Positions 4,434 through 33,873 are shown, counted from the first letter of the stretch. The stretch: DNA of 34,041 nt from Catajapyx aquilonaris (GCA_000934665.2 JYFJ02004280.1:1-34041), one strand, 5' to 3'. Translations and numbers: made by a program. Notes: generated from the letters alone by a model not told the origin.

Positions 4434-5077
4434 AGCATCCCGGGTAATACATCTTAACAGCGACTGCGACTTGATATAGCCGTTATACAAGCAGCTATTT
4501 TCGGCCCAAGAGCTATTTTAACCTCCATATAGGCTCCCTTGGAGGACGGTCTTACCCGATTTATTTTCACCGCTTTCCGGACAGTAACGGCTCCGAGCAT
4601 CCCGGGTATCTTAACAGCAACTGCGACTTGATATAGCCGTTACATAAGCAGCTATTTTCGGCCCAATAGCAATGTTAACCTCCATATTGGCGCCCTTGGC
4701 GGACGGTCTAAACCGCTATTGACTTTCAACGCTTTCCGGGCAGTAACGGCTCCGAGCATCCCGGGTAATACATCTTAACAGCGACTGCGACTTGATATAG
4801 CCATTATATAAGCAGCTATTTTCGGCCCAATAGCAATTTTAAGAATTTTAACCTCCATATTGGCTCCCTTAAAGGACGGTCTTACCCGATTTATTTTCAC
4901 CGCTTTCCGGGCAGTAACGGCTCCGAGCGATCTTAACAGCGACTGCGACTTGTTATAACAGTTATATAAGCAGCTATTTTCCGCCCAATAGCAATTTTAA
5001 CCTCCATATTGGCTCCCTTGGAGGACGGTCTTAACCGCTATTTATTTTCACCGCTTTCCGGGCAGTAACGGCTCCGA
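4434..5077. repeat. tandem repeat, four copies of ~150-170 bp
   Basis: Recurrent unit tcttaacagcgactgcgacttgatatagc...aagcagctattttcggcccaa...ctccatattggctccctt...ggacggtctt...cgctttccgggcagtaacggctccgag. Confidence 0.93.
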
Positions 5078-5121
5078 GAATCTCGTTACGACTACCTTCT
5101 ACTCTTTCGATATCGTCCAAG

Positions 5122-5204
5122 TTAAGGTGGCATATTTTAATTCGTTATTTTTCCACCAGCGGCTCGTGGCGTCACAAGTACGACACCATTAATATCCAGG
5201 ACTG
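5122..5204. mobile_element. solo terminal inverted repeat of the same MITE family as 10140-10403
   Basis: ccagcggctcgtggcgtcacaagtacgacaccattaatatccaggactg followed by TA aligns with the right end of the 10.1-kb MITE (ccagcggctcgtggcgccacaagtacagtaccattaatgtccagcactg|ta). Confidence 0.75.
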
Positions 5205-6349
5205 TACAATCTAAAAAGCTGAGGTATTCTCAGAAGTGGTGTTATATGAATTCATAATGAAATTCATACATAATTCGCATATCGCTTATCCTGCACCTGT
5301 GTCCAACCTTTATAATTCATCTTTCCAATCTTATTCAGCCAATTTTTTTAAACCAAAAAGCGACACTTGCCACGAGGCATTTTACTGTGACAAAAGCATG
5401 CCCATGACACTATTACAGTCCAGACATTTTAAACGACGTGTCCAGAAGAAAGAAAAAAAAAACCAAAAAGGATTCTGGCAGATCAATTTGTAACTCTGTC
5501 ACTCTTACTCGTCATAATTCAAAGTGATATTTTTGTGCTTGTTTCTTCACAACCGTCACATCCGTCCCCTCTGAGATGGACAGACTCTTTTTCTTAAACG
5601 TCTGGGATATCTTAAGACTTTTGTCCTTGGCTTATAAAAATGGTGAAAAAAAAGAGAACTTCATTTTTCTGAAAGGCTTTGTGGTGAAACACTGCGGATA
5701 TCTCACACGAAGGTTTTAGAAGTTCGATATTTATGTAGGACAGTCGACAATAGGCGAGTGGGACACCAGAGAAAATCGTAAATGGCAGTTGTTGGAAGTT
5801 TCTTTTCCCAATTTTTTGGGAGATGCAGGCGCCAACTGGTCCAAAGTTTTTTCGAGTTTTCTGAAAAATACGTTTTCCTTATAGAGACGTATAAATATTT
5901 GCGTTTAAATCATATTTTTTCGAATTGCGATAGGTACTTCAAGGAATGATTCGTACGGTATCCTTGGAGGCTTGTAATTTGCCATCTAAAGGACCGGTTA
6001 TACCCAACGGAACCAACTTTTTTTGGGAATATATAAAACTTGACGCTTTTCTAAACACATAGGAAAAACCTAGAGGACAAAAAAAAAACACCCTGCTCAT
6101 ATTCGAGTCTATGTGGGCAGAGTCGTTAATGGAATCCGTTTAGGCATGTCGGCCAACGAAATCGGCTTAAAACCTCCCACGGTTGTAACTCAATATTTTA
6201 AACTCCATGGAATGAGTCCTGTCGTGCTTCTAACAGTAAGAGTTGGTCTTACACTCTTTTGGTAAAAGAGGCCTCTTCATTTAGTGAACGGAAAAAAGTT
6301 TAGGCTCTTTGTTCAGTATATGATTGTGGGCACACGCACAGTATTTTAT

Positions 6350-9900: not shown

Positions 9901-10139
9901 TGGTGTTTTTTTATAATTCATCATGAGCTTCCGATTTCCCGAGAGTGTCAAACGCTCTTTTCCACGAGACAAAATTTTGTCGCAATCCAAAGAGACAAGC
10001 TGGGAGTGCTGGGGTCAATTCTTTCATCGTCACTGCGTCTGGTTGTAAATTATGCACGGGTTGTAAGTGAATTTCAGTCGGTTCAGTGTGTGCGAAGGAA
10101 ATTGGTTCGGGGTTTTTTTTTTCAGACTGGGGAATAGTA

Positions 10140-10403
10140 TAGTGATGGACATTAATGGTGTGTTACTTGTGGCGCCACGAGTCGATGGTGGCAAAAGAAC
10201 GAATCGAAATTTGCCTCCGAATGACCACCTTAATTTGATCATACAAGCGAAGGAAGTCAAACGGACGGCAAATTTTGATTAGCTGAAGATCGACCACCTT
10301 TGCATCAGGTGAAGGTGGTCATCCGGAGGCAAATTTCGATTCGTTCTTTTTCAGCCAGCGGCTCGTGGCGCCACAAGTACAGTACCATTAATGTCCAGCA
10401 CTG
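10140..10403. mobile_element. Tc1/mariner-type MITE (264 bp) with ~100-bp TIRs and TA target-site duplication
   Basis: Left end TA|tagtgatggacattaatgg...acttgtggcgccacgag...aaagaacgaatcgaaatttgcctccgaatgaccacctt is the imperfect reverse complement of the right end aaggtggtcatccggaggcaaatttcgattcgttcttt...ctcgtggcgccacaagt...ccattaatgtccagcactg|TA. CAGTG-like termini. Confidence 0.88.
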
Positions 10404-14039: not shown

Positions 14040-15035
14040 AATCTCGATATATCTACATATCAAGACAATATCGACATCTAAATGCTTGTAAGATAATATC
14101 GATACATCTATATTCTTGTAAGATATTATCGATACATCATTCTATATTCTTGTAAGATATTATCGATACATCTATATTCTTGTAAGATATTATCGATACA
14201 TCTATATTCTTGTAAGATATTATCGATACATCTATATTCTTGTAAGATATTATCGATACATCTATATTTCTGCGATATAATATCGATTCAGCTGCTTTTC
14301 TGCGATATAATATCGATTCAGCTGCTTTTCTGCGATATAATATCGATTCAGCTGTATTTCTGCGATATAATATCTATATACTGTATAAAAATTATTGCAA
14401 GATAATATCGACATATCTGAATACTTTTTGATTTAATATCGATGTGGTATTTCAGTCAATAGCTATAATAATGAGTGTCTTTTAATTTAGTATCGATATA
14501 ATGAGTGTATTTTAATTTAGTATCGATATAACAACAACACCATCACGACATTTCCCTGTAAAGGGGTAGTCAGCGATGACGAGAANCCCCCCCCCCCCGG
14601 CCCTGACCATCTCAGAAAACAAACTCTCAATATTATATTTTACCGCCTTGCATAGTCGTGTAATATTTATATTTAAAATATAATATTGAGTATCGATATA
14701 ATGAGTGTATTTTAATTTAGTATCGATATAATGAGTGTATTTTAATTTAGTATCGATATAATGAGTGTATTTTAATTAAGTACGGTATCGAATATGGAGA
14801 TTTTGTCATATCGATATATCAGAGTAGCTTATGGTTTAATATCGATAAGTCTCAGTATTTTAATTATGGAGACAATATCGATATAACGAATACTGTTCGA
14901 GTTCTTATCGATATAACGAATACTGTTCGAGTTCTTATCGATATAACTAAAATACTGTTCGAGTTTTTATCAATATAACGAATGCTGTTCGAGTTTTTAT
15001 CGATATAACTAATACTGTTCGAGTTTTTATCGATA
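14040..15035. repeat. series of ~30-bp minisatellites sharing a TATCGAT core
   Basis: tatcgatacatctatattcttgtaagatat x5; tatcgattcagctgcttttctgcgatataa x3; tatcgatataatgagtgtattttaatttag about x5 (interrupted at 14531-14690); tatcgatataacgaatactgttcgagttct about x5. Confidence 0.93.
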
Positions 15036-15914: not shown

Positions 15915-16380
15915 TATCATCATATCAAAACATGTATCGATACTATATCGATATTTATGTATGTATTGAGCATAATTATATCGATACTTTTATACAGATT
16001 GAGACGATATCAATATTTCTCTCTTAAGACGATATCGATATTTCTATAACTTATATAATATCAGATATAATATCGATATTTTTATAAATGTCGAGACGAT
16101 TTTGGCATTGCCATATATTGAATATACAGTATACTGTACAGATATATGTAGCCTATAAATTTCGAGACTATATAAATATTTCTAGACATTATCGAGTCGA
16201 TATAGATATTTATATACCTATTGAGTCGATATAGATATTTATATAACTTTATGTAATATCGAATAAATATCTATATTTTTATAATGCAGTATAATATCGA
16301 GATAAAATATCGACATTTTTATAAATATTTAGACCATATCGATATTTCTATATATCTGGAGACAATATTGATATTTCTAA
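15915..16380. repeat. degenerate ATCGAT-containing AT-rich repeat, bounded by ctaaccgaac motifs
   Basis: Many atcgatatt/atcgag variants; ctaaccgaac occurs at ~15873 and ~16377. Confidence 0.7.
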
Positions 16381-18769: not shown

Positions 18770-19047
18770 TGGTTCATTTTACGAGCAAATGTTCAAAGAG
18801 CTGTTTGTTAGCAGCAGCTCGTTAAAAGTACAAAATTGGGCGCTTTTTTTTTCAAAAAAAATCCATATACAAGTACCAGGTAGCAGATAGCAGGTAGCTA
18901 ATCCGTATTGGTTCATTTTAAGAGAAAATGTCCAAAGAGCTGTTTGTTAGTAACAGTTCATTAAAATTACAAAATTTAAAGCTGTTGTTCAAAAAAAATC
19001 ACATACAAATAGCATATAGCGGATAGCATATAGCGTATAGCAAACCC
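18770..19047. repeat. tandem duplication, two copies of ~140 bp
   Basis: tggttcatttta.gag.aaatgt.caaagagctgtttgttag...ttcaaaaaaaatc occurs twice. Confidence 0.85.
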
Positions 19048-19089
19048 GCCATATTGCCATCAGATGTATAATTATAGTGTCGCACTATA

Positions 19090-19960
19090 AATGTGGGAGC
19101 GGCTATTTTGACAGTTACAATATTATTTGAATAGTTTCTAATAGTTTGAATCACTGCGTTTTCAGCTCAACACGAGTAACAATTAGTTGCTATTTTAATA
19201 GTTACAAATAGCTAATATTACCTGCTGGTTTGAACATCTGCTTTTTCCGACCGCACAACTAGGCAAGTGAGCGGTTATATTTCACGCTACAAATAACAAT
19301 ATTTGTTATCATGTTGAATCACTGCTTTTTTGGTCCCGACAAGAGAAATCTTAAGCAGTTATTTCTAGCATAAAATATAGCTTCATATTTCGCTACTTTG
19401 AACAACTGCGTTTTTCGACTCAACAACAGGACAAGCAGTTATATTTCACGGCTACAAATTACAATATTTTTGTCACGCTGAATCACCGCTTTTTTGGGCC
19501 CGACAAGAGAAAGCTTAAGCAGTTATTTCTAGCATAAAATAGAGTTTCATATTTCACTACGTTGAACAACTGCGGTTTTCCACCCAACAACAGGACCAGT
19601 AAGCAGTTATATTTCACTGCTACAAATTGGAGTATTGTCAGGTTGAATCACCGCTTTTTTGGGCCCGACAAGAGAAAGCTTAAGCCAAGGCTTAAGCAGT
19701 TACTTCTAGCATAAAATATAGCTTAATATTTCACTACTTTGAACAACTGCGGTTTTCGACCCAACAACAGGACGAGTAAGAAGTTGTTGTCATTCACAGC
19801 TACAGACTACTACCTTTTTCCGCTAGTTGGCTGGGCTGACAAAAGGAGTGGCTTTTGACAGCCCAGGACGAGTGTGTGTAAGCAGTTATTTTAAACTGCT
19901 ACAAATAACCGGACATTTTCTGTTGGTTTCAACTGCTGCTTTTTTCTGCCCTTCCACATA
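19090..19960 (-). repeat. ~82-bp satellite array, inverted relative to the 23232-24300 array
   Basis: Units tgaa(t/c)cactgc.tttt...cgac.caaca...aagcagttat.tttca.gctacaaat are reverse complements of the units at 23.2-24.3 kb. Confidence 0.88.
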
Positions 19961-21183
19961 AGCTACCTGTATGTGTCGCAAAAAATTCTATGGGCACTGT
20001 CCTGATCATTATTAATAGACACATATGGGCTGATACATTTTTAATTAAACCAAAAATGTGCGCGATCTTATTACCCTCTTAAGAGGACCAAGTGCCTAGT
20101 AGCAGTGATTTGTGGGCCTGTTAAAATAACAGCAGCGTTCAGCCCAACATATGGCAGCGTAATTAACGCGGCATCAGGCATATAGAGATAAAAACTCTAT
20201 ATAGGGGTTCAAGCTTTATGAGGTCATTTCGGAAAAGGTGGACTAACTTAGGCTGGAAAGACATCAAAAGGCCTACCCTCCTCCCAACCCTTAAATTATT
20301 GCCTCTACTCTCTCTCTCTCTCTAGGACTTCCATAACCAAACGAGCCTTTCTCTCAAGACATCAAGGCATATTAGCATAATTTCACCTTTATTTTCTGAG
20401 CGAAAATAAGGAAGTTTATGGCCAAATGTGAAGCGTTTGCGCTTTCTGTCAAGTAACATTGAGGCGCCATTTTTGGTCCATTGTTTATCAACAAAAATGA
20501 CAGATCAGAACTGGATTAATTTTTTACAAATTTACCTATACTTGCACATTGTCTATTTCTACATTAACAATCACATTAAGTAGTGTCATAAGCTCAGAAC
20601 CTTCAAATGTTGGCGAATGAGGTTATCTTGAGGGATTTATTAAATTATGCAAATATTGCCCCACCTGTCCAGTCACGCATTAGATCGTTTGTGGAATATT
20701 TAAGTAGTCACACTCGTCGAATTAAGACTGAGCGGGCATACCCCACTGAAGTAGGGTATGCCCGCTCATTTGGTATTAAACGGTGTTTAAACTCCCTCCA
20801 ACTATGCCTAAAATTAATTTTAAGCAAAGTTGGTCATGATTGGCAACGCTAATAAGCCACTCTGTATGGAAATATAAGAAACGACATTTTGGGGGGGGGG
20901 TGGGTGGAGAGGGGTAGAGGACCCCNCCCCCCAGCGGCATTGAGGTTCATCAAAATGCAGATCGCTTGCTCTTCTCCTGATCTGTATGCACCCTGAAGTG
21001 CATTCCCATAATCTCATCCCGCAGGATTTTCCTCTCCCTCTAAAAAAAACCAGGCCCTGAAAAACACCAGAACCTGAACACAGAATTTTTAGCTGTAGAT
21101 TCCACCTTCTAATCTGAATATTTTACTATCCTTTTGAAGGTATGTCACTCACTAGTCATTTTTTTGTCTTTTTTTTTTTACAG

Positions 21184-21228
21184 AATCTCAAGGACCAGAT
21201 TCTGACTACCAACGTTTGGCTAGAACAT
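21184..21228 (+). CDS. nAChRalpha2: nicotinic acetylcholine receptor alpha2-like subunit, internal 45-nt exon (NLKDQILTTNVWLEH; loop D region)
   Basis: Long T tract then tacag acceptor ending 21183; donor gtaagt at 21229; phase 0/0. The peptide matches the remembered insect alpha2 segment NLKDQILTTNVWLEH, and 45 nt is the typical size of this nAChR exon. Confidence 0.95.
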
Positions 21229-21956
21229 GTAAGTAAACCAGGTTTTTTTTTTCTCTCGCAAAATTTTTTGGCTAGAACCCTAAAGGACATAAATATTCAA
21301 CAGCAGGGAAAAGTGGCAGCGATTTTTTTTTTCCGCGAATGCCAAGTGTGCTGGATGGGCACACACTTTGTGAAGCGAGATAACCGAATCGTGTAGTTGA
21401 CAATTTGGAAGCGAGGCTACATTGTGATTTGATCAACACACAATACCCTGTGGGCTAGTTTCGGGTTGGAGGTACTCTGAAATGTTAATGCCACGCAGTC
21501 CGCTGAAATTCGACACCAACTTGAATCCATCGTTTTCGAGTCCAGCGAATTTTTTTTTTCCTCGTAATTTGGCGACAATGACATGCCAATAAGTTTAACA
21601 CCTTTCAGTAGTGTATATGCCATGTTCAAACTGTGGCACATCACTTTGTCATATGCAGGAAAAAAATAAATTGCTATACTTTATTTGGTCGCTGGCTTTT
21701 GTATGGACGGAGATGGTTGTGATAGTTCGATATCGCATACAAAAGATATATGGCGACGGACGCCACAGGTGATCAGGAGAAAGTGCTGATCGAATGCCCC
21801 TGCTGTGAAGGAACTTCATTGCATCAGATGCTCAAGCGTTCCATTTTGGAAAATTGCAATCATGTTGTAGGTAGATAGAGAAATACACAGGAATACAGGG
21901 AAGGTTTCGCGTTTTCTAATGTAGGTGATAACCCAAGCCGGTACAATAACAGGTAT

Positions 21957-22518
21957 AACAGCTCTTAAAAGTAGTGACAATAACGAAAAAAGGAGTTCTT
22001 GACATATAAACCAGAATAGCAACTGTTAAAACTAGTGACAAATACAAAGAGCGGTTATACTGAAAAATAGCATAATATGCTATTTCTTCAGTAACTGCTT
22101 ATCGTATTTGTCACTGCTTTTAGACAGACAGACAGCCATTACGGCATTGCCCCATGATAGGGTAGCCAGCGAGCTGCTTTTAACAGCTGCTAGTCTGCTA
22201 TTTCCCTTACCAAAATCTTGGCTACCTAGTGGCTAGCTCGCAGGATGACCTCGTTGGCAAGGTAGAGGCGAGCTAGTTGCTTGCCTTCTGTCAAGAACTC
22301 CCTTTTCGTTACTGTCACCACTTTTAAGAGCTGCTGTTCTGTTATATTCTGTTATGTTAGCACTTAGCATATTAAAGCAGTGACAGGTGCGGAGAACCAG
22401 TTCTTGACAGAAATAGAATAACTGCTACTAAAAGTAGTGACAATTACGAAAAACTTGTTGACAGAAATAGCTATTTCTGTCAATGATTAATTGCACCTAC
22501 TACTGTAGTAGGCAATTA
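21957..22518. repeat. foldback region with nested inverted repeats
   Basis: 21960-22004 is the inverse of ~22289-22332; internal hairpin centred ~22073 (agtgacaaatac / gtatttgtcact); perfect 26-bp palindrome ttgacagaaatagctatttctgtcaa at 22458-22483; hairpin ~22489-22517. Confidence 0.85.
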
Positions 22519-23097
22519 GTCACAGCTCCTCAAAACAGTTACAGTTAGAAAGTAACGTATATGCGTAAATTCTTTCAAGCATCATCAAGGTGGCTACAAT
22601 TGAGGTGAGGTTTAACACAGCTCTACACCTACACAGTGCCCCCACTCACAATTGGAAAATGGCTGCCCAAAATATGTCGAAATCGCTCTCTACCACAAAC
22701 GAATCCAATCGAGAGCATGTATTACTTCTCGCAATTAGCTTATTACGTCCCCGAAGCCCTGAGCGATGAATTATTCCGCAACTTATTCAGCACTTTGCCA
22801 GGTTCGAATATTGTTACCCCCCTCCCCCCACTCAGTATTGAAACCCACCCCCACCCCCATCCTATCCCCACATGTGGGGGGTCCCCATCCAAACGCATGA
22901 TTGAACATTGAACCCCGCGTTGGTGTGAACCCACGCGCGATCAGTGCATTACCAGGCACATAATGGGTTTATATCTGCCCTCTCGCCAATTTCAGACCAT
23001 AAATGCATCGCCGCATGCCATCACCCCACCCCACTGCTACCCTACACCCACCCCCACTCCCTGTGCAACACTGTCCAAATTAACGATCTCGTTGCAG

Positions 23098-23207
23098 GAA
23101 TGGCAGGACCACAAGTTCCGTTGGGATCCGGCCGAGTACGGAGGCGTCACAGAGTTATACGTCCCTTCTGAACACATCTGGCTGCCCGACATCGTGCTGT
23201 ACAACAA
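23098..23207 (+). CDS. nAChRalpha2: nAChR alpha2-like subunit, internal 110-nt exon ([37 protein letters not shown]; loop A)
   Basis: ttgcag acceptor ending 23097; donor gtgagt at 23208. Contains the WLPDIVLYN loop A motif. Ends in phase 2 (AA), completed by the T of the next exon to give Asn. Confidence 0.96.
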
Positions 23208-23231
23208 GTGAGTGCCTGCCAGTCATGCCAG

Positions 23232-24300
23232 GGTCGAAAAATATGACGTTATTATTAGCTGTGAAAAATCACTGCTTATCCGTCTTGGAGAGTCGAAAAA
23301 AGCAGTGAAACGATGCAAAAATATGACGTTATTTGTAGCTGCGAAAAATCACTGCTTACCCACACTCGTGTTGGGCTGAAAAGCAGTGAAACTATGCGAA
23401 AATATTACGTTATTTGTAGCTGTGAAAAATCACTGCTTACCCACATTCGTGTTGGGCTGAAAAAGCAGTGAAACTGTGCTAAAATATTACGTTATTTGTA
23501 GCTGTGAAAAATCACTGCTTACCCACATTCGTGTTGGGCTGAAAAAGCAGTGAAACTGTGCTAAAATATTACGTTGTTTGTTGCTGTGAAAAATCACTGC
23601 TTACCCACACTCGTGTTGGGCTGAAAAAAGCAGTGGTTCAAACTAGCAGAAATGTTAGGTTATTTTAAGCTGTTAAAATTAACCGCGGACTCGTCCCGTA
23701 GGGCCGAAAAAAGCAGTGGTTCAAACTAACAGAAAATATTAGGTTATTTGTAGGTGTTAAAAATAACTAGTTACACGTCTTGTTGTATGGCCCGAAATAG
23801 CAGTTGTTCAAACTAGCAGCTAATATTGAGTAATTTGCAGCTGTGAAAAATAGCTGCATGCCATATTAGTGTTGAGCTGAAAAAAAAGCAGAAGTTCAAA
23901 CTAGCAGAAATGTTAGGCTATCTGTAGCAGTCAAAAACAACGGCTTGCTCATCTTGTTGTTGGGTCGAAAAGCACAGTTGTTCAAACTAGTGAAATATTA
24001 AGCTATTTGAACTATTAGAAATAACTTGCCGGGCAGGAAAAAAGCAATGGCTAATACTGGCAGTAAATATTACGTTATTTTCAGCCGTGAAAAATAACTC
24101 CTTACTTGGCTAGTTTTGGGGTCGAAAGAAGTTGTTCAAACTAGCAGGAAATATTCGCTGTTTGTAACTTTAACAGTTGCTAATTGTTACTCGCGTTGTT
24201 CTGAAAAACCAATGGTCAAACTGGCAGAAAATATTCAGTTATATGTAGCCGTGAATAATAGCTGCTTACTCGTCCTGGTGTTGGGTCGAAAAGAGCAGCG
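23232..24300 (+). repeat. ~82-bp satellite array, about 13 units
   Basis: Unit aatattacgttatttgtagctgtgaaaaatcactgcttacccacattcgtgttgggctgaaaaagcagtgaaactgtgctaa starts at 23401, 23483 and 23565; units diverge distally. Confidence 0.92.
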
Positions 24301-26500
24301 TTCGATCGCTATTTACTTCGATTCGTCATTAAACATTACATTGAATATTGACACTGAATGATCATTACCTGTTCATTCATTCAACCCAGCCTTATGACAG
24401 TAATACTGATTAACTTGAAATTAGCTAACTGGCGTCACTGTAATCATTGTTGGAACACCCTGTATTTTTTTAAGGAATTGGAGTGCGATGTGAATTATGT
24501 CGTAAAGTGACCCGAGGGAAGAGTAGGAGAGCCTCGAAAAAAAAATATTTTTTTGAAGGGTTGGAGTTAGAGCAATTAAAAGTTGGTGAGAACAATGGAT
24601 GGCGAAAAAAAAAGTTCAGATATTCAGGGGTAGTTAGCTGCGTTTTTCTGGACTGAGGACAAAAGAACTGGTCTTGCACACACACACCCACGACTGGAAG
24701 GCAGCCAGTGTAATTGAAGGGGGAGCTTTTTTTAACTCACTAAATGTGGCTGCCGAATTATTTTTTTCACAAGATCCCTTTTTGTGTAAGTCCAGTCCAT
24801 TATGGTCTATGAAAGCATGAAAGTCTATCAAAAAAAATCCGCACTTTCCATCACTATATGACTTGTAACAATTCTTAATGACACCACTGTAATTGCCACT
24901 TGGTAGTAAACAACAAAAAATGACGCCATTATAAATATTTTAGAAGCCAGAAATTGCGATGAAAGTAATAAAATATGTAAATGCCATGAAAATTAACTAA
25001 ATAATAAAATAATTGTTGGGTATGATTGTTGTTGATTACCATGGAAGGTTGGTGCAGGTAAATGGACAATGCGTGTACGTAGATACAACAGGAGTGGCAA
25101 TCGGCAAGGTCAAATGTAATCCAACCAATAACTTGTAAGAAAATCAACAATGGGCAATAACAATTGGACACAAAAATAATGCACTAAGTATCGAAACACA
25201 TGCCACTAATCACGGAGAAATAAACAACGTTAGCTAATGTGAATCAAAAGGGGTTGATACTCACAAAATCCAGTTTGACTCCAACGGAACAGCAACAATC
25301 ACGTAGAACCCAGTCACTCAGTAGGAATGAATCTTCTTGTAATTAGTTGAAACGCTAATTAGAGTATCCAAACAAAACGTATGGTTACGACTCAAAAAAT
25401 GAAGTTACGTACCGGTATCCAAAAAGAGCTGCGTATACTGTAGAGATACGTGCGAGGTGAATGGCTTCCCTTCACATAGTATATTTCAAGGATGCGCAAC
25501 TGATAAAAACGCTGGTGCGTCGAATATGACCATATGACTGTAAAATGGTTACTAAATCAATGACATGGAAGGCAATGTAATCAACTTAAAATATTTTTAA
25601 CAAATTAATGATAACAGAAGGTCCAAACACAAACCGAATTACAATTATTTACATAACGTTGACTCCATGCACATACGTTATATTGCAAAAAAATCGGACA
25701 TTTTTTTTGGCGAGCTATATTGGCAATTTGGTCCAGCTTATTGAGTATATAAATGGAAGCTGAGAGGTTATTGGAAGCTTCTGTCTCTCTGGCGTCTTCT
25801 GGAGAAATTGACTTCAGACCTGATTGACTGGACAAAGCCCAACAATATATCGAGGAAAGGCGGGAAAAAAACTCAATTTCCAGTTATGAGAATAGTCGCC
25901 ATTGCTTAGTTTTTTCTGCTAAAAGTTCCCAGCTTGTTTACTGAAATCCACATTCACAAGCTGACTGCACAAGTTTAATGTAAAAATAATGTGTGAATGG
26001 CCCATAGGGTGATCAATATGGGGTTGGCCACACTCTCGAATTATGGGTTTTTTTACAGGGTGGTTTTTTTTAAAGCGATAAATGACTCGCTCTTAATTGG
26101 CTGTATTTGTACTAGCGGAATAGTGTTTACGAAGCAATGAAGATCAGGAAGGCATTTTAGAGCAAGTCACCCCCGTGAATGATTTGCATAACGAGCTTCA
26201 GTGTTTGTTGCGACTAAAGTGATGTATTTACATCCTAAGTGAATTCTACATGGGACAGTAAGTTTGTTCCGGACACTGAGTTAGCGTCCCATACATCAGT
26301 CCCTTTTGTTTTAGTCCGCTGCATTTGTGTCAAACCAACTTTCGCCATTTAACATTTTCAGCATCACTATAACAATACAGGCTGTTAAGCACAGCAAGAT
26401 TTATTGCATTAGTATCAATTGTAGTGCTCACATTTGTTTAAAATACTAAATCGTTTGTTTGAGGTACAATCTGGGTCTCACAAAGTGTGAAACTCTGTGT

Positions 26501-26801
26501 CCCGGTCTCGCATAGGGGCTGAGGACCAAGGTTGGTGTTTTGACTGTAGCTCTGGGGACATTCTCCAAATTGTGGGGACATTTCGAGTCCCCACAGCATA
26601 TACGCCTGGTGGGGTACTGCTTCAGTGGGGACATGTCCCCACAATTCCGTTATGTAGGGTTTGCAAAAGTCCATTTTTCTCAGCCTAGGTTAGGTAGGTT
26701 AGGTTAGGTTAGGTTAGGTTAGGTTAGGTTAGGTTAGATTGGTTTACACTCGTTTCGAAAATGTCTGTTGTCCTTGCCCCCACAGCCTATGGCGCGCAAG
26801 A
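26501..26801. mobile_element. probable non-autonomous element containing an interstitial (TTAGG)n tract
   Basis: Interrupts one copy of a short tandem duplication and is flanked by GTGT on both sides. Imperfect subterminal inverted repeats (catagg...caagg / ccttg...cctatg), internal gtggggac/gtccccac motifs, and a TTAGG run at 26686-26744. Confidence 0.55.
26686..26744 (+). repeat. interstitial arthropod telomeric-type repeat (TTAGG)n
   Basis: Seven perfect TTAGG units at 26699-26733 with degenerate flanks. Confidence 0.9.
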
Positions 26802-27537
26802 GTGTGTGAACTTGAGTTAAAACATTTTTGATTGAAAAATTTAAATCGTTTGTTTGAGGTACAATATGCGTCTCACAGAGTGTGAAGCTGTCTGTGAACC
26901 TGAGTTAACAAAAAGTGAAGTGGCGGCAATAATTAAACATCCAGCGTCAACTACCTTTTTCCGATAATGATCATTACTAGCAGATTAGCCCAGGCTTTGT
27001 GCCTGCTCATTGTTGCGCGAAACTTGCTTCGCCATGTCTCTCACACCCCCACCTTTTTGTTGAAACATTTCTACCCNNCCCCCCCCCCCCCCCCCTTATA
27101 ACATTGCAGGTGGGACACAAAGTTTCGGGGCAAACGCAATTAGGATCACGGGTAGGGTCCCGGGCAAGGTAGATTGTTAGGCTCCCAGGCATCTGTTGTG
27201 CCAAAATGCTGTTTTAATATGATTCAAGCAGGAAAGGCTGGAGCACTTGAAAGCGCTACTTCCGCCTTGTGGTCACCGGACCGTTCAAAAAGTGGTGTAG
27301 AAAGGGGTCAGGTCCACTAATATTGTTTGAAAATTTTTCTGACCCCGAGTTCAGAACTGTTGGGACACGGTTGGAAGCGAGGTCAGAGGGTAACATAGGT
27401 CACAGAGTCGTGAACTAGCACAATGCAATCAGGCAGCCGGATAAGCTCGTAAGCCCCAGATATTCGTGTCAGACCGCTAATGGGATTGACTTATGTGCTA
27501 ATTGCATTGTAATTAGAGTTTGCATTGTGCATGATAG

Positions 27538-28230
27538 AACCAATCAGCATAACTCGTGAGAAAACCAATCACCTTTCTCGATATTGAAGCTGGAGTCAAT
27601 CATCTCGCTCGTGATGGAAGAACCAATCACGTTACGCCACGTCACTGGCTGTTGACGAGGTTATTGGTTCTACCGTCACGAGCGACGTGATTGGTTGCCG
27701 CGTCAACAGCCAGTGACGTGGAGCAACGTGATTGGTTACTGGGGGTTGAAGCGGCAACCAATCAGATCGCTCGTGATGAAAGAACCCACCACGTTAAGCC
27801 ACGTCACTGGCTGTTAAAGTGAGAGCCAATAACATCTCTCGTAAGTGAAGAACCAATCACGTTACTCCACGTCACTGGCTGTTGACGCGGCAACCAATCA
27901 CGTCGCTCGTGACGTGGCGTAACGTGATTGAATCTACCGTCACGAGCGACGTGATTGGTTGCCGCGTCAACAGCTAGTGACGTGGAGTAACATGATTGGT
28001 TACTGGGGGTTGAAGCGGCAACCAATCAAATCGTTCGTGATGAAAGAACCAACCACGTTACGCCACGTCACTGGCTTCTGACGCGGCAACCAATCAGATC
28101 GTTCATGATGAAAGAACCAACCACGTTAAGCCACGTCACTGGGTTTTGAAGTGGGAGCCAATCACATCGCTCGTAAGTGAAGAACCAATCCGATTACGGA
28201 ACGTCACGCATGGCAGAACCAATCACAGGA
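27538..28230. repeat. CCAAT/CCACGTCA-rich direct and inverted repeat cluster
   Basis: Repeated aaccaatca, ccacgtcactgg and cgctcgt modules in both orientations; ~140-bp direct duplication (from ~27670 and ~27934); 64-bp inverted arms 27851-27914 / 27938-28001. Confidence 0.92.
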
Positions 28231-29003: not shown

Positions 29004-29184
29004 TGCTGATGGAGAGTATGTGGTGACCACGATGACCAAGGCGGTGCTACACTTCACTGGAAAGGTGCTGTGGACACCACCCGCCATCTTCAAGTCATCA
29101 TGTGAGATTGACGTCGAGTACTTTCCATTCGATCAGCAAACGTGCTTTATGAAGTTTGGTTCCTGGACCTACGACGGATATCAG
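29004..29184 (+). CDS. nAChRalpha2: nAChR alpha2-like subunit, internal 181-nt exon ([60 protein letters not shown]; loop E, Cys-loop, loop B)
   Basis: tttcag acceptor ending 29003; donor gtaatt at 29185. Read by hand because the ORF track shows only its antisense frame. Contains the C-x13-C Cys-loop ([15 protein letters not shown]) and FGSWTYDG. Phase is compatible with both neighbours. Confidence 0.97.
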
Positions 29185-29224: not shown

Positions 29225-29850
29225 TAAATTACTGCTGTACTGCATTAAACTATTTATTTGTTAAATTACAGTACTGTATTAAACTATTTATTTGTTAAAT
29301 TACAGTACTGTATTAAACTATTTATTTGTTAAATTACAGTACTGTATTAAACTATTTATTTGTTAAATTACAGTACTGTATTAAACTATTTATTTGTTAA
29401 ATTACAGTACTGTATTAAACGATTTATTTGTTAAATTACAGTACTGTATTAAACTATTTATTTGTTAAAGTATTAATTATTTATTTGTGAAAGTATTAAT
29501 TATTTAATTATTTATTTGTGAAAGTATTAATTATTTAATTATTTATTTGTTGAAGTATTAATTACCGGGGTTTAATTATTTATTTGTTAAAGTATTAATT
29601 ACCGGGGTTTAATTATTTATTTGTTAAAGTATTAATTACCGGGATTTAATTATTTATTTGTTAAAGTATTAATTACCGGTATTTAATAAGTTATATATTA
29701 AATTATTAAATTATTTACATGTCAAATTATTAAAATATTTACATGTCAAATTATTAAATTATTTACATGTTAAATTATTAAATTATTAACATGTTAAATT
29801 ATTAAATTATTAGCATGTTAAATTATTAAATTATTAATCATCTATTAAAC
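29225..29850. repeat. AT-rich minisatellite series (34-bp, ~37-bp and 24-bp units)
   Basis: tattaaactatttatttgttaaattacagtactg about x7, then aaagtattaattaccggggtttaattatttatttgtt about x4, then aaattattaaattatttacatgt about x5. Confidence 0.92.
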
Positions 29851-33310: not shown

Positions 33311-33467
33311 ATCGACCTGAAGCATATAAATCAGAAGCAGGGAGAGGACATGGTGCAGATAGGGATAGACCTCAGGGAGTATTACCCGAGTGTGGAATGG
33401 GACATTCTCAAAGTACCGGCTGAGAGACATGAGAAGTTCTACCCATGCTGTATGGAGCCATACCCAG
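33311..33467 (+). CDS. nAChRalpha2: nAChR alpha2-like subunit, internal 157-nt exon (IDLKHINQKQGEDMVQIGIDLREYYPSVEWDILKVPAERHEKFYPCCMEPYP; loops F and C)
   Basis: Polypyrimidine tract plus ttcag acceptor ending 33310; donor gtcagt at 33468. The vicinal cysteines in YPCC define an alpha subunit, and GIDLREYYPSVEWDIL..PAERHEK is characteristic of alpha2. Confidence 0.96.
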
Positions 33468-33611: not shown

Positions 33612-33873
33612 AGAATTCTCTGTACAACGTCAAAGATTTTTCAAATATGGAAAATTCTTTGTACAACGTCAGAGAATTCTTTTCTATGGGGAATTCTCTG
33701 TACTACGTCAGATAATTATTTTTTAGGCGAATTATCTGTACAACGTCAGAGAACTCTTTTCTATAGCGAATTCTGTGTACAACGTCAGAGAATTCTTTTC
33801 TATGGCGAATTCCCTATACAGCGTCATATACTATGTATAATTCTTTCTATGGAGAATTCTCTGTACAACGTCA
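33612..33873. repeat. ~39-bp minisatellite, about 7 units
   Basis: Recurrent gaattctctgtacaacgtcagagaattcttttctatgg. Confidence 0.88.

What the first reader, a model, noticed from the sequence alone, without database searches (positions are those of the whole stretch)
19090..24300. Inverted ~82-bp satellite arrays bracket two nAChR alpha2 exons: candidate long-range dsRNA switch (circRNA, exon skipping or ADAR)
Seen in sequence: the array at 19.09-19.96 kb is the reverse complement of the array at 23.23-24.30 kb. For example, the reverse complement of ~19148-19286 (cgtgaaatataaccgctcacttgcctagttgtgcggtcgg...gttcaaaccagcaggtaatattagctatttgtaact...ctaattgttactcgtgttgagctgaaaa) aligns colinearly with ~24087-24207. 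The two arrays enclose the 45-nt and 110-nt exons, and the downstream array begins ~25 nt after the donor. Established: inverted intronic repeats promote back-splicing and ADAR editing, and arthropod nAChR transcripts are frequently edited and alternatively spliced. Inference: the pre-mRNA may form hundreds of bp of imperfect duplex that loops out 155 nt of coding sequence, giving a circRNA and/or a frameshifted skipped mRNA.
Basis: partly seen in the sequence, partly recalled or inferred. Interest (0 to 1): 0.7.

Follow-up and report, generated by a model that had tools for sequence, protein, structure and literature searches.

The report
Mirror-image repeat arrays flank receptor exons
Two old, mirror-image copies of the same tandem repeat sit in the introns on either side of two small exons of an insect nicotinic receptor gene and could zip together in the RNA, an arrangement known to favour circular RNAs, but nothing yet shows that it does so here or that it was selected.

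Summary
Array 19090-19960 (84/164-bp period) and array 23222-24300 (82-87-bp period) belong to one family. They lie strictly inverted to each other and occur nowhere else in the 34-kb window. They bracket the canonical 45-nt and 110-nt exons of an insect nAChR alpha2 gene. Identity between the arrays is only 66-69% over 500-840 nt. Even so, ViennaRNA predicts about 540 inter-array base pairs in the 5.3-kb pre-mRNA. That prediction is about 190 kcal/mol more stable than a control with one array flipped. Variant monomers lie in mirror order, so both arrays descend from one ancestral ordered array and were later amplified separately. Divergence looks neutral: wobble-preserving and wobble-breaking transitions number 46 and 37, with many transversions and indels. 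The one RNA-like run shows normal exon 4-5-6 splicing and an unedited 248-nt piece of the downstream array. Its depth is about 2, so it cannot detect back-splicing or exon skipping. The arrangement matches a known kind: reverse-complementary repeats flanking circularising exons, as at Drosophila laccase2. My reading is a repeat pair of neutral origin that plausibly causes some exon 3-4 back-splicing. A regulated switch is not supported. Interest is modest.

The parts
19090..19960 (-). Upstream array in the intron before exon 3. About 10 monomers of about 84 bp, in minus orientation relative to the downstream array. On the sense RNA it carries U-runs.
   Evidence: TRF; blastn; nhmmer; 8 T-runs of 5 or more
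19270..19773 (-). Locally amplified 164-bp higher-order unit (two monomer types, 3.0 copies, 85% matches) inside the upstream array
   Evidence: TRF; monomer identities U19406/U19569/U19748 at 94% and U19486/U19654 at 89%
21184..21228 (+). nAChR alpha2 45-nt exon (aa about 62-76 of insect orthologues)
21946..22345 (.). Separate palindromic (MITE-like) inverted repeat inside the intron between the two exons. Not related to the arrays.
   Evidence: I17, 31 nt at 94%; 59 nt at 86%
23098..23207 (+). nAChR alpha2 110-nt exon (aa about 77-113), followed by donor GTGAGT
   Evidence: spliced 23207->29004 in run X5
23222..24300 (+). Downstream array, 13 monomers of 81-87 bp, starting 14-30 nt after the exon-4 donor. 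On the sense RNA it carries A-runs.
   Evidence: TRF; blastn; nhmmer; monomer alignment; 19 A-runs of 5 or more
23238..23635 (+). Young homogeneous block of 82-bp monomers (4.9 copies, 90% matches; neighbouring copies 94-98% identical)
   Evidence: TRF
19410..19431 (+). Upstream half of the longest uninterrupted predicted inter-array helix (22 bp, three of them G-U). Its partner is 23952-23973.
   Evidence: bases read
29004..29184 (+). Next alpha2 exon (181 nt)
33311..33467 (+). Following alpha2 exon (157 nt)
   Evidence: loose end of the X5 contig at 29184 equals its first 30 nt

Best explanation
The two arrays are mirror-image descendants of a single ancestral tandem array that already had an ordered set of variant monomers. 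It was copied either by a local inverted duplication or by two opposite insertions of a repeat-carrying mobile element. One copy lies in the intron of more than 21 kb upstream of exon 3. The other lies in the 5.8-kb intron directly downstream of exon 4 of an insect nAChR alpha2 gene. Each copy then diverged to 66-83% identity and amplified its own sub-block. Their origin and decay look neutral.

Both arrays lie on one pre-mRNA and are the only copies within 34 kb. They therefore form a reverse-complementary-match pair. Almost any monomer of one can nucleate pairing with almost any monomer of the other, and the pairing can zip into an imperfect duplex of about 850 nt. That would bring the exon-4 donor (23208) close to the exon-3 acceptor (21183).

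The most likely RNA consequence is some back-splicing into a 155-nt exon 3-4 circle that competes with linear splicing. I see it as a by-product, as at Drosophila laccase2, and not as a tuned switch.

Shown: the repeats, their orientation, their common origin, the predicted duplex and canonical exon 4-5-6 splicing. Inferred: pairing in vivo and any circle.

My odds: common origin 0.95; thermodynamically able to pair 0.9; a detectable circle in deep neural total RNA about 0.45; a selected regulatory role about 0.1.
For: Same family, strictly inverted, absent elsewhere in the window.

Mirror order of variant monomers from the outer to the inner end: U19237~D24132 at 83%, U19325~D24048 at 74%, U19406~D23976 at 77-80%, and the innermost U19935 closest to the D23302-23547 type at 69-73%. 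Each array also has its own internal amplification at 94-98% identity.

Duplex potential. RNAduplex gives -665 kcal/mol, against -332 +/- 11 for 40 dinucleotide shuffles and -398 for the direct-orientation control. Cofolding gains -214.6 kcal/mol and has 529 inter-array pairs. The MFE of 19050-24330 has 544 inter-array pairs. Flipping the upstream array leaves 120 such pairs and costs 189 kcal/mol. 103 of 117 monomer pairs score below the 1st percentile of shuffled controls.

Neutral-looking divergence: 46 wobble-preserving against 37 wobble-breaking transitions (p = 0.38), 107 transversions and 92 gap columns in 840.

Both flanking introns are long (more than 21 kb and 5.8 kb).

Precedent. 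[quoted passage not shown] Neuronal circRNA-flanking matches are enriched in Helitron repeats and bound by ELAV, and a fly nAChRalpha4 back-splice is shown in a figure legend (PMC12404201, passages).
Against: No back-splice junction was seen. The only RNA-like run (X5) gave 5 contigs at depth about 2, with canonical 23207->29004 splicing and no read over exon 3, so it has no power either way.

The duplex is heavily interrupted: 87 helices, the longest 22 bp with 3 G-U pairs, and 64-67% of positions paired.

Each monomer has an internal palindrome, so local hairpins form first. The arrays alone fold to -228 and -303 kcal/mol.

The upstream array ends 1.2 kb before exon 3. It is removed if that intron is spliced before the downstream array is transcribed.

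Kramer et al. state that many exons flanked by complementary repeats do not circularise.

MFE folds of 5-kb RNAs are poor guides to structure in vivo.
Confidence: 0.5

Rival explanations
1. Inert intronic junk. The arrays are real inverted repeats but never pair to any effect in vivo. The upstream intron is spliced, or each array is locked in its own hairpins and coated by proteins, before the downstream array is made. No circle, skipping or editing results.
For: Neutral-looking divergence. Strong consensus splice sites at both exons. Internal palindromes and substantial self-folding of each array. A control with direct orientation still gives 120 inter-array pairs, which shows how promiscuous these sequences are. 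An unedited intronic array contig was found in RNA. The array is polymorphic within the DNA sample at 23832-23935. Many repeat-flanked exons do not circularise (PMC4617980).
Against: The gain from pairing is large: -215 kcal/mol in the cofold and -189 kcal/mol against the flipped control. Weaker repeats suffice at laccase2. The pair has no competitor copy within 34 kb. Both flanking introns are long.
Confidence: 0.33
2. The duplex is a selected, regulated device that sets alpha2 receptor dosage by diverting pre-mRNA into a circle or into a frameshifted mRNA that skips exons 3-4.
For: Geometry. The downstream array abuts the donor (14-30 nt). It is the only pair in the window. Both flanking introns are long. 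The U-rich strand of the repeat lies in the upstream intron, where ELAV binding is reported to matter (8 U-runs; PMC12404201). Skipping 155 nt would shift the frame.
Against: There is no wobble bias or other sign of selection for pairing. The arms have decayed to 66-69% identity with 92 gap columns. Each arm re-amplified independently, which creates unpaired surplus. The array is polymorphic. No RNA evidence exists. Given two nearby copies, inverted orientation has a prior of one half.
Confidence: 0.1
3. A double-stranded RNA substrate. The intronic duplex is mainly a target of ADAR hyper-editing or of Dicer-2 (endo-siRNAs), with effects on nuclear retention or silencing and not on splice choice.
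For: About 540 predicted pairs, including an 80-bp block interrupted only by bulges of 2 nt or less.
Against: The longest uninterrupted helix is 22 bp and contains G-U pairs, far from the near-perfect hairpins of hpRNA loci. The one RNA contig over 23546-23793 has 0 differences from the DNA. This evidence is weak because contigs drop rare variants.
Confidence: 0.07

Closest known systems
Drosophila laccase2 (and PlexA) circular RNA loci: inverted DNAREP1_DM transposon repeats in the flanking introns (Kramer et al. 2015, PMC4617980; passages read)
   Same: An insect gene with imperfect inverted repeats of similar quality: 75% over 106 nt and 69% over 272 nt there; 78% over 107 nt, 82% over 91 nt and 66-69% over 500-840 nt here. 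In both cases the repeats lie in long introns close to the bracketed exon(s), are derived from repetitive DNA and are lineage-specific.
   Different: Here the arms are about 0.9-1.1-kb tandem arrays that can pair in many registers. Two exons (155 nt after intron removal) are bracketed instead of one large exon. The upstream arm lies 1.2 kb from the acceptor. No circle has been observed.
ELAV-bound reverse complementary matches flanking neuronal circRNAs in Drosophila, including a back-splice in nAChRalpha4 (Alfonso-Gonzalez et al. 2025, PMC12404201; passages and one figure legend read)
   Same: A neuronal receptor gene with AU-rich complementary matches of repeat origin in long flanking introns. 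The U-rich strand is in the upstream intron.
   Different: ELAV binding, neuronal expression and back-splicing are all untested here. The gene is alpha2, not alpha4. The species is different and unnamed.
Inverted Alu pairs flanking human circRNA exons and acting as ADAR substrates (named from recall and as cited within PMC4617980)
   Same: Dispersed-repeat arms in opposite orientation loop out exons. Competition between alternative pairings decides the outcome.
   Different: Alu pairs are abundant genome-wide and usually more similar to each other. Here the family shows no excess read depth at 90% likeness, and the pair has no competitor within 34 kb.
Foldback (FB) transposons of Drosophila, whose long inverted termini are built of tandem repeats (recalled, not checked in a paper)
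   Same: Two inverted arms, each a tandem array with a gradient of monomer variants from the outer to the inner end.
   Different: Conserved host exons and an ancient intron lie between the arms, so this cannot be one inserted element.
Exon skipping in the nAChR alpha6 gene of Tuta absoluta associated with spinosad resistance (PMC5111602; search listing and start of abstract only)
   Same: Loss of a small N-terminal ligand-binding-domain exon of an insect nAChR subunit has a phenotype.
   Different: A different subunit, involving mutually exclusive exon 3 versions. No role of inverted repeats is known to me.

Membership tests
Reverse-complementary-match (inverted-repeat) circRNA locus, laccase2 type | Complementary repeats in both introns flanking the circularising exon(s) | tested here: met
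   Predicted 544 inter-array pairs, orientation-dependent.
Reverse-complementary-match (inverted-repeat) circRNA locus, laccase2 type | Canonical acceptor and donor on the bracketed exons | tested here: met
   AG at 21182-21183 and GT at 23208-23209. The donor is used in RNA: joint 23207->29004.
Reverse-complementary-match (inverted-repeat) circRNA locus, laccase2 type | A back-splice junction (23207->21184) present in RNA | tested here: inconclusive
   None among the 5 contigs of run X5, at depth about 2 and with no cover of exon 3. No other RNA run was offered.
Reverse-complementary-match (inverted-repeat) circRNA locus, laccase2 type | Circularisation depends on pairing (lost by mutating one arm, restored by a compensatory change) | not testable with these tools
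   Needs a minigene or genome editing.
ADAR hyper-editing substrate (long intronic dsRNA) | Long, nearly uninterrupted duplex | tested here: inconclusive
   87 helices, the longest 22 bp. The best block has 80 bp with bulges of 2 nt or less. 64-67% of positions are paired.
ADAR hyper-editing substrate (long intronic dsRNA) | Clustered A>G differences between RNA and DNA | tested here: inconclusive
   0 differences in the one 248-nt RNA contig on 23546-23793. One contig at depth 2 cannot exclude editing.
Genomic satellite DNA / high-copy tandem-repeat family | Head-to-tail monomers | tested here: met
   TRF; monomer alignment.
Genomic satellite DNA / high-copy tandem-repeat family | High copy number in the genome | tested here: inconclusive
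   Summed contig depth on the arrays (X1 19-29) is like the flanks (16-22), whereas 26534-26880 reaches 311-648 (likeness 90 or more). More diverged copies would not be counted. No genome is held.
hpRNA / endo-siRNA hairpin locus | Long near-perfect inverted repeat | tested here: not met
   66-69% identity with 92 gap columns in 840.
Foldback-type transposon | A single mobile unit: two tandem-repeat arms around a short non-host loop | tested here: not met
   The 3.3-kb 'loop' holds two conserved alpha2 exons in gene orientation.
Insect nAChR alpha2 (alpha-like 2 / alpha-L1) orthologue | Exon translations closest to alpha2-named subunits | tested here: met
   The 181-nt exon is 90-97% identical to proteins named alpha2 / alpha-like 2 / alpha-L1, against 63-71% to proteins named alpha4 or alpha-like. 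Four exons are colinear with 5 of 5 alpha2-type proteins tested. The names are the sources' own.

The most novel reading that the evidence does not exclude
The tandem arrays act as a multi-register RNA zipper. Because 103 of 117 monomer pairs can nucleate, pairing would be fast and tolerant of decay. The U-rich upstream arm would be held by a neuronal RNA-binding protein such as ELAV until the A-rich downstream arm is transcribed. Neurons could then divert a controlled share of alpha2 pre-mRNA into a 155-nt exon 3-4 circle (or a frameshifted skipped mRNA) and so set receptor dosage. Copy-number polymorphism of the arrays would make that dosage heritable and variable. This could matter for sensitivity to nicotinic insecticides.
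Probability: 0.08. Interest if true: 0.65.

Novelty: new member of a known kind. Interest (0 to 1): 0.3.

Why it matters
If the arrays do drive back-splicing, this would be a clean natural case outside Drosophila in which repeat arms set how much functional mRNA an insecticide-target receptor gene yields. It would be testable by deleting one array. It would also show that tandem arrays, which offer many pairing registers, can serve as circularisation arms even after heavy decay. As it stands, it is one more long-intron inverted repeat pair in a repeat-rich insect genome. It is useful mainly as a well-defined candidate for anyone with neural total RNA from this species.

Tried and rejected
1. 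Whole-genome census of the repeat: no genome is held for this window.

I used the 181-nt exon instead.

3. RNA evidence: no RNA holder was listed. The four DNA runs come from one sample and are probably the assembly's own source. Run X5 is of unknown kind, but it behaves as RNA because it carries the GT..AG joint 23207->29004 that the DNA runs lack. It gave only 5 contigs at depth about 2, with no cover of exon 3 or of the upstream array. It therefore says nothing about back-splicing, skipping or editing of the upstream arm.

4. Earlier notes of this scan, searched by place, by sequence, by relatives and by words: nothing on this locus or repeat. The genome-wide word search gave only general context.

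5. Rfam at gathering thresholds and a tRNA scan of the whole window: 0 and 0. The arrays are not a known structured RNA or a tRNA-derived SINE.

6. Transposon ends. I read the array flanks and saw no shared unique flank, terminal repeat or target duplication. The two outer ends stop at different monomer phases. I ran no systematic test and no repeat library was available.

7. Assembly artefact: rejected. All 30 bins are covered in X1, X2 and X4. Contigs with 0 differences run into both arrays from the unique flanks (18900-19508, 19656-20454, 20922-23372, 23936-26552). No listed contig bridges 19508-19656 or 23372-23936, as expected for internally repeated sequence, so the exact copy numbers there rest on the assembly.

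8. Split of one array by an inversion: rejected. The exons between the arrays keep gene orientation, and the two arrays carry the same variant monomers in mirror order, not complementary halves.

9. Literature. Three searches found no paper on an alpha2 circRNA or on satellite arrays as circularisation arms. The listings were read only as titles and abstract starts. PMC11257933 passages held nothing on nAChR circles. No supplementary files were opened. The circRNA tables of PMC12404201 might list nAChR loci.

10. I did not scan the metagenome or prokaryote collections for the monomer. They do not hold insect genomes, and the monomers are too divergent for exact patterns.


Full report
**What is there**

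The window holds four consecutive coding exons of an insect nicotinic acetylcholine receptor gene on the plus strand:
- 21184-21228 (45 nt)
- 23098-23207 (110 nt)
- 29004-29184 (181 nt)
- 33311-33467 (157 nt)

All four have AG/GT boundaries. They are colinear with residues of about 62-227 of five of five insect alpha2 / alpha-L1 proteins tested by tblastn. The 181-nt exon is 90-97% identical to proteins that their sources name alpha2, alpha-like 2 or alpha-L1. It is 63-71% identical to proteins named alpha4 or alpha-like. The exons for residues 1-61 were not found in the 21 kb upstream, so the intron before the 45-nt exon is longer than 21 kb. Earlier notes of this scan treat the genome as an insect.

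Tandem Repeats Finder reports several arrays:

| Region | Period (bp) | Copies | Matches |
|---|---|---|---|
| 19270-19773 | 164 (also read as 84) | 3.0 | 85% |
| 23238-23635 | 82 | 4.9 | 90% |
| 23389-24009 | 82 | 7.3 | 75% |

- blastn of each array against the whole window finds the other array only on the opposite strand and nothing else. The best alignment is 19098-19909 against 24266-23491, with 66.4% identity over 840 columns and E about 1e-52.
- A profile of the monomer finds 9 copies upstream, all in minus orientation, and 13 downstream, all in plus orientation. Outside the arrays no hit has E below 0.7.
- Ungapped complementary arms reach 107 nt at 78%, 91 nt at 82%, 77 nt at 83% and 42 nt at 86%.
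- In a self-comparison of the window, the only other repeat pair more than 1 kb apart is a short one at 5.1 and 10.1 kb. This pair is therefore not one of many.
- The downstream array begins 14-30 nt after the donor of the 110-nt exon.
- The upstream array ends 1.2 kb before the acceptor of the 45-nt exon.

**Assembly check**

Contigs of three DNA runs from one sample cover all 30 bins. They run from unique flanks into both arrays without a difference. No listed contig bridges the internally repeated cores (19508-19656 and 23372-23936), so exact copy numbers rest on the assembly. Summed contig depth on the arrays resembles the flanks (X1: 19-29 against 16-22). A dispersed repeat at 26534-26880 reaches 311-648. 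At 90% likeness or more the family is thus not visibly high-copy. More diverged copies would escape this measure, and the tool warns that such depth is not a copy number.

**Origin**

I cut the monomers in one phase and aligned them.
- Identity between arrays averages 65% (maximum 83%). Within arrays the average is 64-69% (maximum 94-98%).
- Variant monomers correspond in mirror order from the outer to the inner ends:
  - U19237~D24132 at 83%. Both carry the odd CTAATTGTTACTCG variant.
  - U19325~D24048 at 74%.
  - U19406~D23976 at 77-80%.
  - The innermost U19935 is closest to the D23302-23547 type at 69-73%.
- The correspondence is not perfect. U19486, U19654 and U19836 are closest to the outermost D24212.
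- Each array then amplified a block of its own: a 164-bp two-monomer unit upstream, and five 82-bp copies next to the exon downstream.

This is what one expects if a single ordered array was copied once in inverted orientation, or if two copies of an element with that internal order inserted in opposite directions, and both copies then decayed. I could not separate these two origins. I saw no shared unique flank or terminal structure when reading the flanks, and the outer ends stop at different monomer phases. One foldback-type element is excluded because conserved host exons lie between the arms. A split of one array by an inversion is excluded because the exons keep gene orientation and the arms share the same variants.

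**Can the RNA pair?**

On thermodynamics, yes.

| Test | Result |
|---|---|
| RNAduplex, upstream x downstream | -665 kcal/mol |
| RNAduplex, 40 dinucleotide shuffles | -332 +/- 11 kcal/mol |
| RNAduplex, upstream array reverse-complemented | -398 kcal/mol |
| Arrays folded alone | -227.7 and -303.4 kcal/mol |
| Arrays cofolded | -745.7 kcal/mol (gain -214.6), 529 inter-array pairs |
| MFE of 19050-24330 (5281 nt) | 544 inter-array pairs |
| Same, upstream array flipped in place | 120 inter-array pairs, 189 kcal/mol less stable |

In the MFE of the 5281-nt segment the pairs run from 19097/24267 to 19951/23454. They enclose both exons in a loop of about 3.5 kb.

The duplex is rough:
- 87 helices, the longest 22 bp including three G-U pairs;
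- 47 G-U pairs among the 544;
- 64-67% of positions paired;
- a best near-continuous block of 80 bp.

Because the arms are arrays, 103 of 117 monomer pairs have a duplex energy below the 1st percentile of shuffled controls, against 20 of 117 in the direct-orientation control. Pairing can therefore start in almost any register. MFE folds of 5-kb RNAs do not show what happens in a nucleus.

**Is pairing selected?**

I found no sign of it. In the main alignment, 46 transitions would keep a G-U wobble on the sense RNA and 37 would give A-C (binomial p = 0.38). There are also 107 transversions and 92 gap columns. Seven other registers give similarly balanced counts. The DNA sample carries a second haplotype inside the downstream array: 11 substitutions and a 2-nt deletion within 23832-23935, at about a third of the depth. 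Given two nearby copies, inverted orientation has a prior of one half.

**RNA evidence**

No RNA run was listed. One run of unknown kind from the same species label (X5) behaves as RNA:
- A 155-nt contig joins 23207 to 29004 across GT..AG. None of the three DNA runs has this joint.
- A contig ending at 29184 continues with the first 30 nt of the exon at 33311.

Canonical splicing of exons 4, 5 and 6 is therefore shown. A 248-nt contig lies on 23546-23793 inside the downstream array with no difference from the DNA. The array is thus present in RNA, most simply as pre-mRNA, and those molecules are not hyper-edited. Depth is about 2. Exon 3 and the upstream array are not covered. The data cannot speak to back-splicing, skipping or editing of the other arm.

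**Comparison with what is known**

- Kramer et al. 2015 (PMC4617980, passages) showed that circularisation of Drosophila laccase2 exon 2 needs base-pairing between inverted DNAREP1_DM repeats. [quoted passage not shown] About 40 nt can suffice. (CA)n simple repeats serve at Semaphorin-2b. Many repeat-flanked exons nevertheless do not circularise.
- Alfonso-Gonzalez et al. 2025 (PMC12404201, passages) report three things. Reverse complementary matches flank most neuronal circRNAs in fly. They overlap repeats, with Helitron enrichment. They are bound by ELAV, especially in the upstream intron. A figure legend shows a back-splice in nAChRalpha4.

The present pair fits this known kind in arm quality, long flanking introns and a neuronal gene. 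By chance or not, its U-rich strand (8 runs of five or more U) lies upstream and its A-rich strand (19 runs) downstream. It differs in having kilobase tandem arrays as arms and in bracketing two small exons (155 nt). It fails the near-perfect-duplex criterion of hpRNA loci. The long-duplex criterion for ADAR hyper-editing substrates was inconclusive.

**Verdict**

The repeats are real, share one origin, and are able to pair on paper. Their history looks neutral. The most likely effect is some back-splicing of exons 3-4 as a by-product. I put a detectable circle at about 0.45 and a selected switch at about 0.1. This is a new member of a known kind, not shown to act. Interest 0.3.

Noticed in passing
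window 26187-26880: A high-copy dispersed repeat in the intron after exon 4. Summed DNA contig depth is 97-648, against about 20-40 around it. Many loose ends occur there, and pieces of it are also present in the RNA-like run X5. It includes a (TAGGT)n run at 26686-26737.
   Followed up: no
window 4434-5094, 14062-15035, 16162-16379, 27669-28207, 29237-29837, 33613-33826: At least six further unrelated tandem arrays lie in the same 34 kb (periods 157/322, 30, 29, 68/264, 24-37 and 39/77 bp). Several have internal palindromes. For example, 27674-27737 against 27851-27914 is 98% complementary. The introns of this gene are unusually rich in tandem repeats.
   Followed up: partly
window 21946-22345: A palindromic, MITE-like element lies in the intron between the 45-nt and 110-nt exons (arms 31 nt at 94%, or 59 nt at 86%). 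It would fold locally and shorten the effective distance between the two exons.
   Followed up: no
window 20891-20932 and 22818-22870 / 23031-23060: A G-rich tract lies about 260 nt upstream of the 45-nt exon. C-rich tracts lie 40-280 nt upstream of the 110-nt exon and are partly complementary to it (30 nt at 73%, I21). As RNA they could loop out the 45-nt exon alone. Not tested.
   Followed up: no
window 14586, 20926, 27077-27078: All four N's of the window sit inside long C homopolymer runs. These are probably base-calling gaps and not real features. One DNA contig inserts a C at 20921.
   Followed up: partly
window 20455-20607 and 23832-23935: Two short stretches show a second haplotype in the DNA runs, at about a third to a half of the depth: 14 and 11 substitutions plus small indels. 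The second lies inside the downstream array, so the array is polymorphic in the sequenced sample.
   Followed up: no
window 5126-5210 and 10134-10218: An 85-nt repeat occurs at 5.1 and 10.1 kb and matches in both orientations (81%). It is a short palindromic dispersed element in the long upstream intron.
   Followed up: no
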